Positions 36,401-39,400 of a stretch of 64,000 nt of DNA are shown in pieces. The stretch is taken from assembly GCF_053078305.1 (NCBI RefSeq), contig NZ_CP166879.1; one strand, 5' to 3'. The position numbers were made by a program. Each line of letters opens with the position of its first letter. Positions within the stretch are counted from its first letter, which is position 1.

Positions 36401-39400
36401 CGGAGGCTTCATCAGAGAAGCTGACAGCCAGCGCATTTTCTGCCAGTCCGTAGCACGGCATGAAAGTTTTATTGTCAAAGTTAACCTGACGGAAACATTC
36501 AGCGAATTGATGGAGTTGTTCTGCGGAGATGGGTTCTGCACCAATACCAGCGACGCGCCAGCAGGAAAGATCCAGTTCAGCGAGATCTTTTTCATTCACG
36601 CGGCGCTGGCACAATTCATAGCCAAACGGCGGCGCAACGGAAACGGTGCCGCGATTTTTACTGATCAATTTAAGCCATTGCAGAGGACGCATGGCAAAAT
36701 CCTGAGTGCGCAAATAATCTACTGAAAGTTGCGTGGCGACCGGGGTCAGGAGAAAGCCGACCAGTCCCATATCATGGTAGAAAGGCAGCCAGGAGACGCA
36801 GCGGTCGCCAGGGCGTAATTTAATGCCGTCGTGGCTTATAGCACGTAGATTAGCCATCACTTCGCGATGGGTGATAATGACGCCACGGGGAAAACGGGTG
36901 CTGCCGGAGGTGTACTGGAGGTAGGCGATATCGTTCGGAACTGGACGCTGGAGCGCAACATCAGCTTCCGGTAATGCCTTAAACCAGGCGTGGCTTAATA
37001 CATGCAATTCGGGGTTGTTATGCGTGGCGGCATTGACCAGCGGCAACCACTCATCACCAGTGATAATGGCAGCGGGCTGGCAACTTGCCAGTAAACCCTG
37101 CAGTTTGGCGCTCCAGGAATCCCGCTGACCGACGCCCATTGGAATCGCCAACGGGACGGCGACTAAGCCGGCATACTGGCAGGAAAAAAAAGCCTCTACG
37201 AACCCGCTACTGGTTTCGGCAATCAGCGCCACGCGATCGCCTTTTTTCAGGTTCAGCGATAACAACCGCTTCGCACCAGCTTCGGCACGTGCTTTTAACG
37301 TCTGATATTCCAGTTGATCTTCAAGTTGGCAACGTCTGTCATAAAAATTCATTCCGGCGCTACTCAGAGCGGCGTAGTCCAAAGCATCAACCAGCGTTGG
37401 AAAATCGGCATAGCGCATAGGTAGGGAATGCGTAAAGATTTTATTAGACATATACACCACGAAAAAATTGGATATCCAAAATAAAATGACAATAATGCGG
37501 TGGATTATATAGGTATAAAAGATAAATGAGATAGTATTTTCATTGGTGTGATATTGAACATTGATTAAAATAATGCTTTAAATCTTAACTCTGTTTATTG
37601 TGAATAATATTTAATTTATGAATATATTAAGATAATGCCCTGGTGGGTCGCATTAAATCCACAATAGTCATGTTGATCGGCTAACGGTGGCGCTGGTGTA
37701 TCGTAATTATTCATAAATATTATTTTATTTTTCCTTATATTCATTGCGTGGATAGTTAAGGTACCGTCCGTTGCTGTTTATTTTCAGCATTAATTATTTG
37801 TTATCCACTAAGCTATGGAATGCGATCTGCTGATGATTCAAATTGAAAAAGTAACTAATAAAAATGACCTTAAGGCATTTATCGCTTTTCCGTCATCACT
37901 TTATCCCGACGATCCAAACTGGATACCCCCTTTATTCATTGAACGCAACGAGCATTTGTCTGTGAAAAATCCGGGGACGGACCATATCATCTGGCAGGCG
38001 TGGGTGGCAAAAATAGCCGGGCAGATAGTTGGGCGTATTACCGCGCAAATCGATACCTTACACCGCGAGCGTTACGGCGAAGATACCGGTCATTTCGGCA
38101 TGATTGACGGCATTGATGATCCGCAGGTTTTTGCCGCGTTGTTTGGCGCAGCGGAAGCGTGGTTGAAGTCACAAGGTGCAAGTAAGATCAGCGGTCCTTT
38201 CAGCCTGAATATCAATCAGGAAAGCGGATTACTGATTGAAGGTTTCGATACACCACCCTGTGCGATGATGCCACACGGCAAACCGTGGTATGCCGTGCAT
38301 ATTGAACAATTGGGTTATCACAAAGGCATTGATTTACTGGCGTGGTGGATGCAGCGAACCGATCTCACTTTCTCTCCGGCGCTAAAAAAACTGATGGATC
38401 AGGTGCGCAAAAAGGTGACCATTCGCTGCATCAATCGCCAGCGGTTTGCCGAAGAGATGCAGATCCTGCGTGAGATTTTCAACTCTGGCTGGCAGCACAA
38501 CTGGGGATTTGTGCCGTTTACCGAACATGAATTCGCGACCATGGGCGACCAACTTAAATATCTGGTGCCGGACGATATGATCTACATCGCTGAGATTGAT
38601 TCTGCACCCTGCGCGTTTATTGTCGGCTTGCCGAACATCAACGAGGCGATTGCCGATCTGAACGGATCGCTCTTTCCCTTCGGCTGGGCAAAATTGCTGT
38701 GGCGTTTGAAAGTCAGCGGTGTGCGAACTGCGCGAGTGCCGCTGATGGGCGTGCGGGACGAGTATCAGTTCAGCCGCATCGGCCCGGTGATTGCGCTGTT
38801 ATTGATTGAAGCCTTACGCGATCCGTTTGCCCGCCGGAAGATCGATGCGCTGGAGATGTCATGGATCCTCGAAACCAATACAGGCATGAATAACATGCTG
38901 GAACGCATTGGGGCGGAGCCGTACAAGCGTTACCGATTGTATGAAAAGCAGATTTAATACCAGCTAACTCAGGTTCATCTCCAGCGGCACCGCCGAGCGA
39001 ATCAAATGGTGGCCTTCCAGCTCGATATCGTGGAGATTCTTTTTCACGGTCCGCACATGATCGCGTGCTGCGCGCTGGGCGACGTGCGGCAGCCGCTGCA
39101 ACACCGCGTTGTAGATCCGCGCATGCTGGCGATCGATCTGCTTTTTTTGCTGTGGTCGATGGTAGAGATTATTTACGCTGGCAAACACTGAATTAAACAT
39201 CAGGTCAGTCAATGATTGCAGCGTAAACACCAGCACCTGATTGTGAGAAGCCTGACAAATGGCGAGATGGAAAGCGTGATCCAACTGCGCATGTTCGATC
39301 AGCGAAATCTCTTTGTTGTTCTCACTGGCGGCGAGCATTTTTTCATAACAGCGGGTTATCACAACAAAATCAGCCTGCGTTCCCAGCGTTGCCGCCAGCC

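What the first reader, a model, noticed from the sequence alone, without database searches (positions are those of the whole stretch)
37461..37814. AT-rich 354-bp divergent control region between the acyl-AMP ligase operon and yghO
The region is much more AT-rich than the flanking coding sequence, with runs such as aaaataaaatgacaataatg and ttattttatttttcc. This is the signature of curved, H-NS-silenced promoters of accessory loci, and both divergent promoters for the lipid cluster must lie here. Similar AT-rich tracts precede sslE (48441-48888) and pitB (24207-24446).
Basis: partly seen in the sequence, partly recalled or inferred. Interest (0 to 1): 0.35.

Follow-up and report, generated by a model that had tools for sequence, protein, structure and literature searches.

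The report
AT-rich control region, E. coli ceramide genes
This is the AT-rich, gene-free spacer between the two divergently transcribed halves of E. coli's little-known ceramide (sphingolipid) synthesis genes: an ordinary kind of promoter region that is probably kept quiet, but whose yghO-side half exists in sharply different versions in different Escherichia strains.

Summary
Window 37452-37814 has 29% G+C against about 52% in both flanks. It is one of four such spacers in the window, and only 0.26% of equal-sized windows are as AT-rich.

It separates aasR(FAAL)-cerR-acpR-spt (minus strand) from yghO (plus strand). yghO is the homologue of Caulobacter ceramide synthase (PMC9386255). This divergent pair is conserved in more than 40 Enterobacterales and Pseudomonas genomes, always with a G+C-poor spacer.

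"Divergent control region" is well supported. "H-NS-silenced" is plausible but unproven:
- Composition matches the known H-NS target upstream of sslE in the same window.
- BL21's chromosomal copy behaves as silent.
- The H-NS nucleation motif is not enriched, and no binding data exist because K-12 lacks the region.
- "Curved" is not supported: there is no A-tract phasing.

New anatomy:
- The aasR-proximal 93 bp is more conserved than codon third positions across Escherichia and holds a perfect TATAAT.
- The yghO-proximal ~246 bp (37544-37789) is a switched segment. The window's version occurs in 25 of 5426 E. coli genomes and is ~75% identical to the common one. Further versions occur in other Escherichia lineages.

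No RNA family, conserved small ORF or mobile element was found. Ordinary kind, modest interest.

The parts
37452..37814 (.). AT-rich divergent spacer (29% G+C) between aasR (the acyl-AMP ligase / acyl-ACP synthetase gene) and yghO (cerS/aca homologue)
   Evidence: Sequence and composition. Annotated as gene-free in all E. coli records examined. No Rfam match.
35730..37460 (-). aasR (fatty acyl-AMP ligase / specialised acyl-ACP synthetase), first gene of the minus-strand operon. The start is most likely ATG 37451 or GTG 37460.
   Evidence: Pfam AMP-binding; NCBIfam NF006624 scores 874.8 bits against a cut-off of 600. N-terminus conserved across genera. The BL21 homologue ECD_02851 was shown to acylate AcpR (PMC9386255).
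33367..35733 (-). Rest of the operon: cerR/epi (34819-35733), acpR (34539-34787), spt (33367-34539)
   Evidence: ORF coordinates. Pfam Epimerase, PP-binding and Aminotran_1_2. Spt passes NCBIfam NF047599 with 599.5 bits against a cut-off of 500. Same gene order as Caulobacter aasR-cerR-acpR-spt (PMC11324152).
37815..38957 (+). yghO, a GNAT-type N-acyltransferase and homologue of Caulobacter CC_1154 (cerS/aca). The start conserved across genera is Met at 37833.
   Evidence: Homologues are named N-acetyltransferase/GNAT and are 374 aa long. PMC9386255 lists 'aca: CC_1154, yghO ECD_02850'. The Shine-Dalgarno sequence TAAGG before the conserved Met is present in other genera and lost in Escherichia.
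37452..37544 (.). Conserved aasR-proximal block: presumed aasR core promoter, 5' UTR and proximal regulatory sites
   Evidence: 95.7-100% identical among six Escherichia lineages, against 77-87% at codon third positions (Fisher p 1e-4 to 1e-7). Still recognisable in contigs whose flanks are only 85-93% identical.
37505..37510 (-). Candidate -10 hexamer TATAAT for the aasR operon, with a poor -35 (ATCTCA, 17-nt spacer). Predicted TSS about 37497, 5' UTR about 46 nt.
   Evidence: My own approximate position-weight scan. The hexamer is invariant in all Escherichia sequences aligned. This is a prediction only.
37543..37571 (+). Best-scoring candidate sigma-70 promoter towards yghO (TTGGTG-17-TAAAAT). 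Predicted TSS about 37578, leader about 240-255 nt.
   Evidence: The first fixed differences between the two E. coli haplotypes (37544, 37552, 37554, 37567) fall inside it and weaken both hexamers in the common allele. This is a prediction only.
37544..37789 (.). Switched (haplotype-dimorphic) yghO-proximal segment. The window carries the rare version.
   Evidence: 58 of 61 fixed differences between 7 'type A' and 5 'type B' E. coli loci across 12 kb lie here. A and B are 75.7% identical, while the flanks are 99% identical. Type A is at 99% or more in 25 genomes; type B is at about 74% in 4123.
37650..37667 (+). Degenerate copy (GCATTAAATCCACAATAG) of a 16-nt motif, GCATTnAGTGGTAAAA, that is conserved in this spacer in at least 19 genomes of other genera
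   Evidence: The motif was found by regular expression and alignment in Serratia, Pantoea, Erwinia, Tatumella, Hafnia, Citrobacter amalonaticus and others. It is retained at the aligned column in Escherichia-like contigs L058 and L063, and is intermediate in L079. nhmmer does not detect it in E. coli itself, so homology rests on position in the alignment.

Best explanation
Window 37452-37814 is the shared, divergent transcription-control region of E. coli's dihydroceramide synthesis genes. To the left, on the minus strand, lies the aasR-cerR-acpR-spt operon. To the right, on the plus strand, lies yghO, the ceramide-synthase (aca/cerS) homologue.

The aasR-proximal ~93 bp is a selectively constrained core promoter and leader, with a perfect -10 TATAAT at 37510-37505 and a poor -35. 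A poor -35 implies dependence on an activator or on relief of repression.

The whole ~450-bp AT-rich tract (70% A+T, rich in TpA steps) is the kind of DNA that H-NS/StpA filaments coat. The most likely mode of action is that both promoters are held nearly off under laboratory conditions by H-NS-type silencing, and are released by a still unknown signal or counter-silencer.

The yghO-proximal ~246 bp is a fast-evolving regulatory segment exchanged by recombination (a 'switched' intergenic region). The window carries a rare version that probably entered E. coli from another Escherichia lineage and may alter yghO expression.

Shown: composition, gene arrangement, conservation pattern, haplotype structure, and the identity of the flanking genes. 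Inferred: promoter positions, H-NS involvement, and any expression difference between haplotypes.
For: Composition and rarity.

Arrangement:
- The divergent arrangement, with operon-like gene packing, is conserved in more than 40 genomes.
- The spacer is 8-28 G+C points below its flanks in the Enterobacterales (6-15 in the three Pseudomonas/Stutzerimonas loci), even where its sequence is unalignable between genera.

Flanking gene identities:
- Family models.
- Experiments on the BL21 homologues (PMC9386255).

Evidence bearing on silencing:
- In BL21(DE3), which carries the intact locus, expressing only SPT, or only AcpR plus AasR, from plasmids gives a lipid profile like the empty vector. Extracts with the empty vector make no 3-oxo-sphinganine. 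The chromosomal operon therefore supplies no detectable activity in LB at 30 C.
- AT and TpA content equal those of the sslE upstream region of the same window, a reported H-NS-sensitive target.
- yghS, at the cluster's other AT-rich spacer, is H-NS-bound in K-12 and is induced by SlyA.
- H-NS occupancy tracks low G+C genome-wide in ETEC H10407.

Conservation and haplotypes:
- Purifying selection on 37452-37544.
- Sharply bounded haplotype switch at 37544-37789.
- Type A is nearly invariant (0-0.37% differences) on E. coli backgrounds whose flanks differ by 1-2%.
- Related versions occur in other Escherichia lineages, and the segment's relationships disagree with those of the aasR gene.
Against: - There is no direct H-NS binding, TSS or expression datum for this spacer. 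K-12, the source of nearly all such data, has deleted it.
- The tCGATAAATT nucleation motif is not enriched, and there is no A-tract phasing.
- The consensus promoter scan finds no excess of sigma-70-like sites: 2 found against 3.7 expected, only one of them inside the spacer, and that one is far from yghO. My own candidates rest on approximate matrices.
- The BL21 paper suggests that intrinsic ECD_02852 and ECD_02850 (yghO) may convert supplied 3-oxo-sphinganine, so silencing may be incomplete.
- The AT-rich tract is short (~450 bp) and sits between genes of normal G+C, unlike classical xenogeneic islands.
- Type B within E. coli diverges about as fast as its flanks or faster (1.4-6.5%). The right half may therefore be largely unconstrained, and the haplotype difference may have no consequence.
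Confidence: 0.6

Rival explanations
1. This is an ordinary AT-rich promoter region without H-NS silencing. The low G+C simply reflects promoter, UP-element and leader requirements plus the mutational AT bias of non-coding DNA. The genes are off in the laboratory because a specific activator or signal (for example an envelope-stress or host cue) is missing.
For: - The -35 of the best aasR candidate is poor, which suggests activator dependence.
- The H-NS nucleation motif and curvature signals are absent.
- Other genera carry strongly conserved short elements in this spacer that look like sites for a dedicated factor: a 16-nt motif and a TTGAATAA-N5-TTATTCAA palindrome.
- The flanking genes have normal G+C.
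Against: - At 29% G+C it lies far below the 40-58% of the 19 other spacers of the window. It groups with three spacers, two of which are linked to H-NS in the literature.
- No regulator gene is encoded in the cluster.
- The two explanations are not exclusive: counter-silencing by an activator is the usual arrangement.
Confidence: 0.3
2. The two E. coli versions of 37544-37789 are an ancient polymorphism kept by balancing selection: two regulatory 'morphs' of ceramide-synthase expression shared across Escherichia species.
For: - Both versions occur in more than one Escherichia lineage, in disagreement with the aasR gene tree.
- A-B divergence (about 25%) exceeds third-codon-position divergence between these species (13-22%).
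- Comparisons of the same type across species are more conserved than third positions in 4 of 6 pairs.
Against: - Type A is at only 0.5% frequency and is almost invariant in E. coli, which looks like a recent arrival.
- Intermediate and third versions exist (L079/L080, L058/L063), so there are not two clean morphs.
- E. whittamii's type B is nested inside E. coli's type B diversity, and is 100% identical to O55:H7 over 37725-37950, which points to recent interspecies transfer rather than long maintenance.
- A type-A-specific 23-mer found nothing in the metagenome collection.
Confidence: 0.12
3. The spacer hides a gene product of its own. Candidates are the 42-codon ORF on the minus strand (37744-37616), a small RNA, or a structured leader or riboswitch for aasR or yghO.
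For: - An ATG-started 42-aa ORF exists, and its last ~15 codons stay in frame in the common allele through a compensating 1-nt indel.
- Inverted repeats flank the G+C-richer core.
- A weak terminator-like hairpin lies at 37772-37789.
Against: - The ORF is cut by a stop in strain SCPM-O-B-8794 (L006), and its N-terminal half is unrelated in type B. It has no Pfam hit.
- There is no Rfam hit at E<=1, either here or in a Serratia homologue.
- Folding energies are not better than shuffles: z = -1.5 and 0.0; core z = -0.4 to -1.7.
- RNAalifold gives only -17 to -18 kcal/mol over 277-408 nt, with 3-4 compensatory pairs and 9-13 broken pairs.
- The repeat arms are not in mirrored order, so they cannot form one stem.
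- Terminator-like sites: 1 found against 0.4 expected.
Confidence: 0.05
4. The variable core is the remnant of a mobile element (MITE/IS fragment or phage/plasmid DNA) inserted between the two genes.
For: Imperfect inverted repeats of 22-26 nt bracket the core, and the replacement has sharp edges.
Against: - It is single-copy in E. coli genomes (median 1 place per genome).
- There is no phage match. The only 'plasmid' matches are two chromosome-sized records (4.8-4.9 Mb) and one 354-kb record, all holding the common chromosomal allele at about 80%.
- The two versions are colinear and partly alignable, and the core aligns with a motif native to this spacer in other genera.
Confidence: 0.03

Closest known systems
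H-NS/StpA-silenced AT-rich promoter regions of E. coli, e.g. the yghJ(sslE)-pppA-yghG-gsp promoter 11 kb downstream in this window (Yang et al. 2007, as cited in PMC2094087)
   Same: Same composition class (about 70% A+T, TpA-rich, a few hundred bp). Same chromosomal neighbourhood. The genes are silent or near-silent under standard laboratory conditions. The upstream side of the same cluster (yghS) is H-NS-bound in K-12.
   Different: No binding or derepression data exist for this spacer. It lies between genes of normal G+C rather than inside an AT-rich island. The published nucleation motif is not enriched.
'Switched' intergenic regions / regulatory switching (Oren et al. 2014; Thorpe et al. 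2018, Piggy, PMC5890482)
   Same: The same pair of flanking genes carries two spacer versions below 90% identity (here 75.7% over 270 bp) while the flanks are about 99% identical. The replaced tract is confined to non-coding DNA.
   Different: Only the yghO-proximal two thirds is switched, and the aasR-proximal third is ultra-conserved. The versions are still alignable rather than unrelated. No expression data show a consequence.
The Caulobacter crescentus ceramide synthesis locus (aasR CC_1165, cerR CC_1164, acpR CC_1163, spt CC_1162, cerS CC_1154; PMC11324152, PMC9386255)
   Same: The same five structural genes, and the same aasR-cerR-acpR-spt order. PMC9386255 states that E. coli BL21 and Caulobacter are the only genomes in its comparison in which all five are clustered.
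   Different: In E. coli, cerS (yghO) sits directly and divergently next to aasR, so one spacer can control all five genes. In Caulobacter, cerS lies several genes away. Regulation of the E. coli locus has not been studied.

Membership tests
H-NS-silenced AT-rich regulatory region | A+T content well above the genome average over several hundred bp | tested here: met
   70.5% A+T over 363 bp, about 450 bp including the gene edges. Lowest 0.26% of windows.
H-NS-silenced AT-rich regulatory region | High-affinity nucleation motif tCGATAAATT (Lang et al. 2007) present or enriched | tested here: not met
   1 site with 2 mismatches or fewer, against 1.6 +/- 1.3 in dinucleotide shuffles. The known H-NS-sensitive sslE upstream region also has only 1, so this feature discriminates poorly.
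H-NS-silenced AT-rich regulatory region | Intrinsic curvature (A-tracts phased at 10-11 bp) | tested here: not met
   No autocorrelation peak. Fourier power at 9.8-11.2 bp is 0.56 against 0.64 +/- 0.30 in shuffles.
H-NS-silenced AT-rich regulatory region | In vivo H-NS/StpA occupancy, and derepression in hns mutants | not testable with these tools
   No dataset was found for a strain that carries the spacer. K-12 lacks it. The supplementary files held for the ETEC H10407 ChIP-seq paper list only CRP sites.
H-NS-silenced AT-rich regulatory region | Target genes silent under standard laboratory growth | tested here: inconclusive
   Literature only. The BL21(DE3) chromosomal operon gives no detectable SPT, AasR or AcpR function, but intrinsic epi and yghO activity is suspected.
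Divergent (bidirectional) promoter region | Two outward-facing genes or operons with no other gene between them | tested here: met
   ORF map and annotations. The internal 42-aa ORF is not conserved. No RNA family matches.
Divergent (bidirectional) promoter region | Recognisable promoter elements on both strands | tested here: inconclusive
   The tool scan finds 1 plus-strand site in the spacer and no excess over shuffles. My own scan gives TATAAT on the minus strand and TTGGTG-17-TAAAAT on the plus strand. No TSS data exist.
Divergent (bidirectional) promoter region | Sequence constraint in the spacer | tested here: met
   37452-37544 is 95.7-100% identical across Escherichia, against 77-87% at third codon positions.
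Switched intergenic region (Piggy gene-pair definition) | Same flanking gene pair, spacer versions below 90% identical | tested here: met
   75.7% identity with 11 gap columns over 37545-37814. Flanks are 99.1% and 98.8% identical. 58 of 61 fixed differences lie within 37544-37789.
Switched intergenic region (Piggy gene-pair definition) | Different expression of the downstream gene | not testable with these tools
   No transcript data are available for either version.
Cis-regulatory RNA / small RNA | Match to a described family, or a stable conserved structure with covariation | tested here: not met
   Rfam gives none. z-scores range from -1.7 to +0.2. The RNAalifold result is weak.
Small protein gene | Reading frame conserved among relatives | tested here: not met
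   Premature stop in L006; unrelated N-terminal half in type B.
Mobile element remnant | Multiple copies, or matches to plasmids or phages | tested here: not met
   Single copy per genome. No phage hit. The only plasmid-collection hits are two chromosome-sized records and one 354-kb record, all with the common chromosomal allele.

The most novel reading that the evidence does not exclude
The yghO-proximal 246 bp is a lineage-specific regulatory cassette for the ceramide-synthase gene that is exchanged by recombination. It is built around a decaying copy of a 16-nt operator (GCATTnAGTGGTAAAA) conserved across Enterobacterales. The rare version in this window was introgressed from another Escherichia lineage, has spread by recombination across E. 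coli backgrounds, and changes when or how strongly E. coli makes sphingolipids.
Probability: 0.25. Interest if true: 0.5.

Novelty: new member of a known kind. Interest (0 to 1): 0.3.

Why it matters
Most E. coli strains, though not K-12, carry all five genes needed to make dihydroceramide. The enzymes work when expressed from plasmids, yet nobody knows when the chromosomal genes are switched on or what the lipid is for. This 363-bp spacer is where that decision is made for all five genes at once.

Knowing its anatomy gives direct handles for reporter fusions, ChIP and allele swaps in BL21 or wild strains. That anatomy consists of:
- a constrained aasR promoter block;
- a probable H-NS-coated AT tract;
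- a switched yghO-side segment with two naturally occurring versions.

As a piece of sequence biology it is an ordinary kind of object. Its value is as the entry point to the regulation of a cryptic lipid pathway.

Tried and rejected
- **Small ORF 37744-37616 as a leader peptide or small protein.** Rejected: stop codon in L006, unrelated N-terminal half in type B, no family hit.
- **Riboswitch, sRNA or structured leader.** No Rfam hit in the window or in Serratia. Folding is no better than shuffles. RNAalifold shows little covariation on either strand.
- **Curved DNA.** No A-tract phasing by autocorrelation or Fourier test.
- **H-NS motif enrichment.** None.
- **Inverted repeats as one long hairpin or MITE ends.** The arm order is not mirrored, the sequence is single-copy, and there are no true plasmid or phage matches.
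- **Inversion as the difference between the two haplotypes.** Rejected: they are colinear.
- **The 16-nt motif of other genera as a coding start or an RNA hairpin.** Frames break by 1-nt indels and stops, and RNAalifold gives E = 0. nhmmer does not find the motif in E. coli.
- **Hand matches to CRP, PhoP, CpxR, RcsB, ArgR and FadR consensus sequences** (recalled from memory). None was better than expected in AT-rich DNA, so none is claimed.
- **Direct H-NS evidence.** The supplements held for the ETEC H10407 ChIP-seq paper list only CRP sites. Paper searches for yghO, yghQ-yghS with H-NS, and the BL21 locus tags gave nothing on regulation of this spacer.
- **Metagenome scan with a type-A-specific 23-mer.** No hits.
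Full report
**What is there**

The window is Escherichia coli chromosome. The annotated gene order in near-identical RefSeq records is:
- pitB, yghT, yghS, yghR, a flippase-like gene, two hypothetical genes and lptF/lptG paralogues;
- then, on the minus strand, spt, an acyl carrier protein gene, an SDR/epimerase gene and a fatty acyl-AMP ligase gene;
- then, on the plus strand, yghO;
- then glcC, glcDEFGBA and sslE.

The finding's interval is the spacer between the ligase gene and yghO. G+C is 0.291 over 37461-37814, against 0.51-0.57 in the adjacent coding DNA and 0.521 for the window. Only 0.26% of 354-bp windows are as low.

In a crude map of 23 spacers, four sit at G+C 0.29-0.30: this one, pitB-upstream, yghT/yghS and sslE-upstream. 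All the others are at 0.40 or above.

**Boundaries**

RefSeq annotation of the ligase start is inconsistent, giving 562, 573 or 574 aa. The N-terminus MSNKIFTHSL is conserved at the protein level across genera. An in-frame upstream ATG (ATG GTG TAT ATG in Citrobacter and Pseudocitrobacter; ATG GCT nnn TTG TAT ATG in most other genera) corresponds to the E. coli GTG at 37460. The start is therefore 37451 or 37460, not 37418.

For yghO, homologues in other genera are 374 aa long. They begin at the Met equivalent to window 37833, preceded by a TAAGG Shine-Dalgarno sequence. Escherichia has lost that Shine-Dalgarno sequence and acquired an upstream ATG at 37815.

**What the flanking genes are**

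- The minus-strand genes match AMP-binding, NAD-epimerase, PP-binding and class I/II aminotransferase families.
- Spt exceeds the NCBIfam cut-off for serine palmitoyltransferase, and the ligase exceeds the cut-off for fatty acyl-AMP ligase.
- The order ligase-reductase-ACP-Spt equals the Caulobacter aasR-cerR-acpR-spt order (PMC11324152).
- Padilla-Gomez et al. (PMC9386255) worked on the BL21(DE3) copies. ECD_02851 is a specialised acyl-ACP synthetase (AasR), ECD_02853 is its ACP (AcpR), and ECD_02854 is an SPT that prefers acyl-AcpR. They list 'aca: CC_1154, yghO ECD_02850' as the N-acyltransferase.
- YghO homologues are annotated as GNAT N-acetyltransferases.

The spacer therefore lies between the two transcription units that together hold all five dihydroceramide synthesis genes. 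The minus-strand genes overlap by 4 and 1 nt and have one 31-nt gap, as expected for a single operon driven from this spacer. The export-like part of the cluster (yghS to lptG) is transcribed from the separate yghT/yghS spacer.

**Conservation of the arrangement**

A scan of one genome per species found yghO relatives in 45 loci. In nearly all of them the ligase gene lies divergently upstream. These include Citrobacter, Hafnia, Serratia, Pantoea, Erwinia, Tatumella, Rosenbergiella, Klebsiella indica, Sodalis, Pseudomonas and Stutzerimonas.

The spacer ranges from 270 to 1095 bp. It is always poorer in G+C than its flanks: by 8-28 points in the Enterobacterales and by 6-15 in the three Pseudomonas/Stutzerimonas loci. 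Yet its sequence cannot be aligned between groups of genera. Low G+C is thus a persistent property of this control region rather than a relic of one acquisition.

**Tests of the H-NS reading**

For:
- A+T is 70.5% and TpA steps are 12.7% of dinucleotides, against 4.3% window-wide. This is practically the same as the sslE upstream region of this window (70.6% and 10.3%).
- Lang et al. list yghJ (= sslE) among genes known to be H-NS-sensitive.
- In K-12, yghS is in two H-NS ChIP data sets and rises 3.1-fold on SlyA overexpression.
- In ETEC H10407, H-NS occupancy is inversely correlated with G+C genome-wide.
- BL21(DE3) has the intact locus. Yet expressing only SPT, or only AcpR plus AasR, from plasmids leaves the lipid profile like the empty vector. 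Empty-vector extracts form no 3-oxo-sphinganine. The chromosomal operon is therefore functionally silent in LB at 30 C.

Against, or missing:
- The tCGATAAATT motif is not enriched: 1 site at 2 mismatches or fewer, against 1.6 in shuffles.
- There is no helical phasing of A-tracts, so 'curved' is unsupported. The sslE control lacks both features too, so they discriminate poorly.
- No occupancy or mutant data exist. K-12-type genomes have an IS5 element between a truncated yghQ and a 5'-truncated yghO, and have lost the spacer.
- The BL21 authors suspect some intrinsic activity of ECD_02852 and yghO.

H-NS involvement is therefore a reasonable inference, which I put at about even odds. It is not a result.

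**Promoters**

The consensus scan gives no excess of sigma-70-like sites and only one inside the spacer. A scan with approximate matrices recalled from memory gave two candidates:
- On the minus strand, a perfect TATAAT at 37510-37505 with a weak -35. It is invariant in every Escherichia sequence aligned.
- On the plus strand, TTGGTG-17-TAAAAT at 37543-37571.

These are predictions only.

**Two-part anatomy revealed by comparison**

The aasR-proximal part (37452-37544) is 95.7-100% identical among six Escherichia lineages whose third codon positions are only 77-87% identical (p 1e-4 to 1e-7). It remains recognisable in metagenomic contigs whose flanks are 85-93% identical to E. coli. It is under purifying selection and contains the TATAAT.

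The yghO-proximal part behaves quite differently.
- Against 5426 complete E. coli genomes, the spacer is present in 4155. The window's version of 37560-37814 is matched at 99% or more in only 25 genomes, while 4123 genomes carry a version about 74% identical.
- Over 12 kb aligned for seven 'type A' and five 'type B' strains, 58 of 61 fixed differences fall within 37544-37789.
- The flanking genes are about 99% identical between types.
- Type A copies differ by 0-0.37%, although their flanks differ by 1-2%. Type B copies differ by 1.4-6.5%.

This meets the published definition of a 'switched' intergenic region (PMC5890482).

**Origin of the two versions**

Type A-like sequences occur in Escherichia sp. 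E1V33 (94.8%) and strain SCPM-O-B-8794 (85%). Type B-like sequences occur in Escherichia sp. MOD1-EC7003 and E. whittamii. This grouping disagrees with the aasR gene tree.

A-B divergence (about 25%) exceeds third-position divergence between these species. This first suggested an ancient balanced dimorphism. Further sampling argues against two clean morphs:
- Metagenomic contigs hold an intermediate version (L079/L080: 80.5% to A, 82.2% to B) and a third, largely unalignable version (L058/L063).
- E. whittamii's type B is nested within E. coli's own type B diversity, and is 100% identical to O55:H7 across 37725-37950.
- A type-A-specific probe found nothing in the metagenome collection.

The most economical reading has three parts. 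The segment evolves fast. It is exchanged between Escherichia lineages by recombination. The window's rare version is a fairly recent import that has since moved onto several E. coli backgrounds.

**A conserved element in other genera**

In at least 19 genomes of other genera, the otherwise unalignable spacer contains the motif GCATTnAGTGGTAAAA. It is often followed 17-19 nt later by a -10-like GATAAT or TATTAA.
- It is not coding: frames break.
- It has no conserved hairpin.
- It has no Rfam match in Serratia.

The L058/L063 contigs keep it (GCATTTAGTGCTAAGAAAA) at the alignment column of E. coli 37650-37667. There, L079 has GCATTAAGTCTATAAAAG, type A has GCATTAAATCCACAATAG and type B has GCCTTAAATCGACAAAAG. 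nhmmer does not detect the motif in E. coli, so the homology rests on position alone.

It looks like an operator or promoter element for yghO that has decayed in E. coli, together with the lost Shine-Dalgarno sequence.

**Rejected alternatives**

- The 42-codon minus-strand ORF is not conserved.
- RNA structure is not supported on either strand.
- The inverted repeats around the core are not in mirrored order.
- The sequence is single-copy and has no genuine plasmid or phage relatives.

**Verdict**

'H-NS-silenced' is plausible but untested, and 'curved' is unsupported. The added findings are the constrained aasR block, the switched yghO-side segment with a rare allele in this window, and the decayed pan-enterobacterial motif. 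These are of moderate interest and fall within known kinds of phenomenon.

Noticed in passing
L057 2951-3931 (IS5) and 3966-5102 (yghO); window equivalent about 37849-37856 onwards: K-12-type genomes have an IS5 element between a C-terminally truncated yghQ and a 5'-truncated yghO. The whole stretch from the yghQ 3' end through lptF/G, spt, acpR, cerR and aasR, plus this spacer, is missing. This is why K-12 regulatory data sets say nothing about it.
   Followed up: partly
window 37418 / 37451 / 37460: RefSeq (PGAP) annotates the acyl-AMP ligase with three different starts in different E. coli genomes (562, 573 and 574 aa). Conservation of the N-terminus across genera favours the longer forms.
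   Followed up: yes
window 37815-37835: Escherichia yghO has a 6-codon N-terminal extension (MECDLL) not found in other genera, whose homologues are 374 aa. It has also lost the TAAGG Shine-Dalgarno sequence that precedes the conserved Met (37833) elsewhere. Neither candidate start has a good ribosome-binding site.
   Followed up: partly
e.g. L013 5672-5690, L022 5695-5713, L036 5806-5824, L008 5882-5900: A 16-nt motif, GCATTnAGTGGTAAAA, is conserved in the aasR-yghO spacer of at least 19 genomes from more than ten genera, although the rest of the spacer is unalignable. It is non-coding, has no conserved hairpin and has no Rfam match. It may be an operator or promoter element of unknown factor.
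   Followed up: partly
L013, L022, L037, L044, about 100 nt upstream of aasR: A perfect or near-perfect palindrome, TTGAATAA-N5-TTATTCAA, is conserved upstream of aasR in Serratia and Klebsiella indica. It looks like a dimeric transcription-factor site. It is absent from Escherichia.
   Followed up: no
window 24157-24446, 26688-26860, 37452-37814, 48405-48870: Four spacers of this 64-kb window share G+C of 0.29-0.30, while all other spacers are at 0.40 or above. Three of the four bracket or lie inside the sphingolipid/export cluster, and the fourth precedes sslE.
   Followed up: partly
window 37468-37479: A perfect 12-bp palindrome, TTGGATATCCAA, lies just upstream of the aasR start. It exists only in the window's lineage and in BL21. 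Most E. coli have TTGGATATCAAA, so it depends on a single SNP and is probably not a conserved site.
   Followed up: partly
L005 (E. whittamii), equivalent to window 37725-37950: E. whittamii is 100% identical to E. coli O55:H7 across the end of the spacer and the first ~130 bp of yghO, while the surrounding DNA is 80-95% identical. This looks like a recent interspecies recombination tract.
   Followed up: partly
L047 (430-bp contig labelled Macrococcus sp. DPC7161): A very short, low-coverage contig in a Macrococcus assembly encodes a YghO fragment 97% identical to E. coli's. It is almost certainly E. coli contamination.
   Followed up: no
L007 and L030 (Shimwellia pseudoproteus): Shimwellia carries two yghO homologues (82% and 73% identity). 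Only one of them (L007) has aasR divergently upstream.
   Followed up: no
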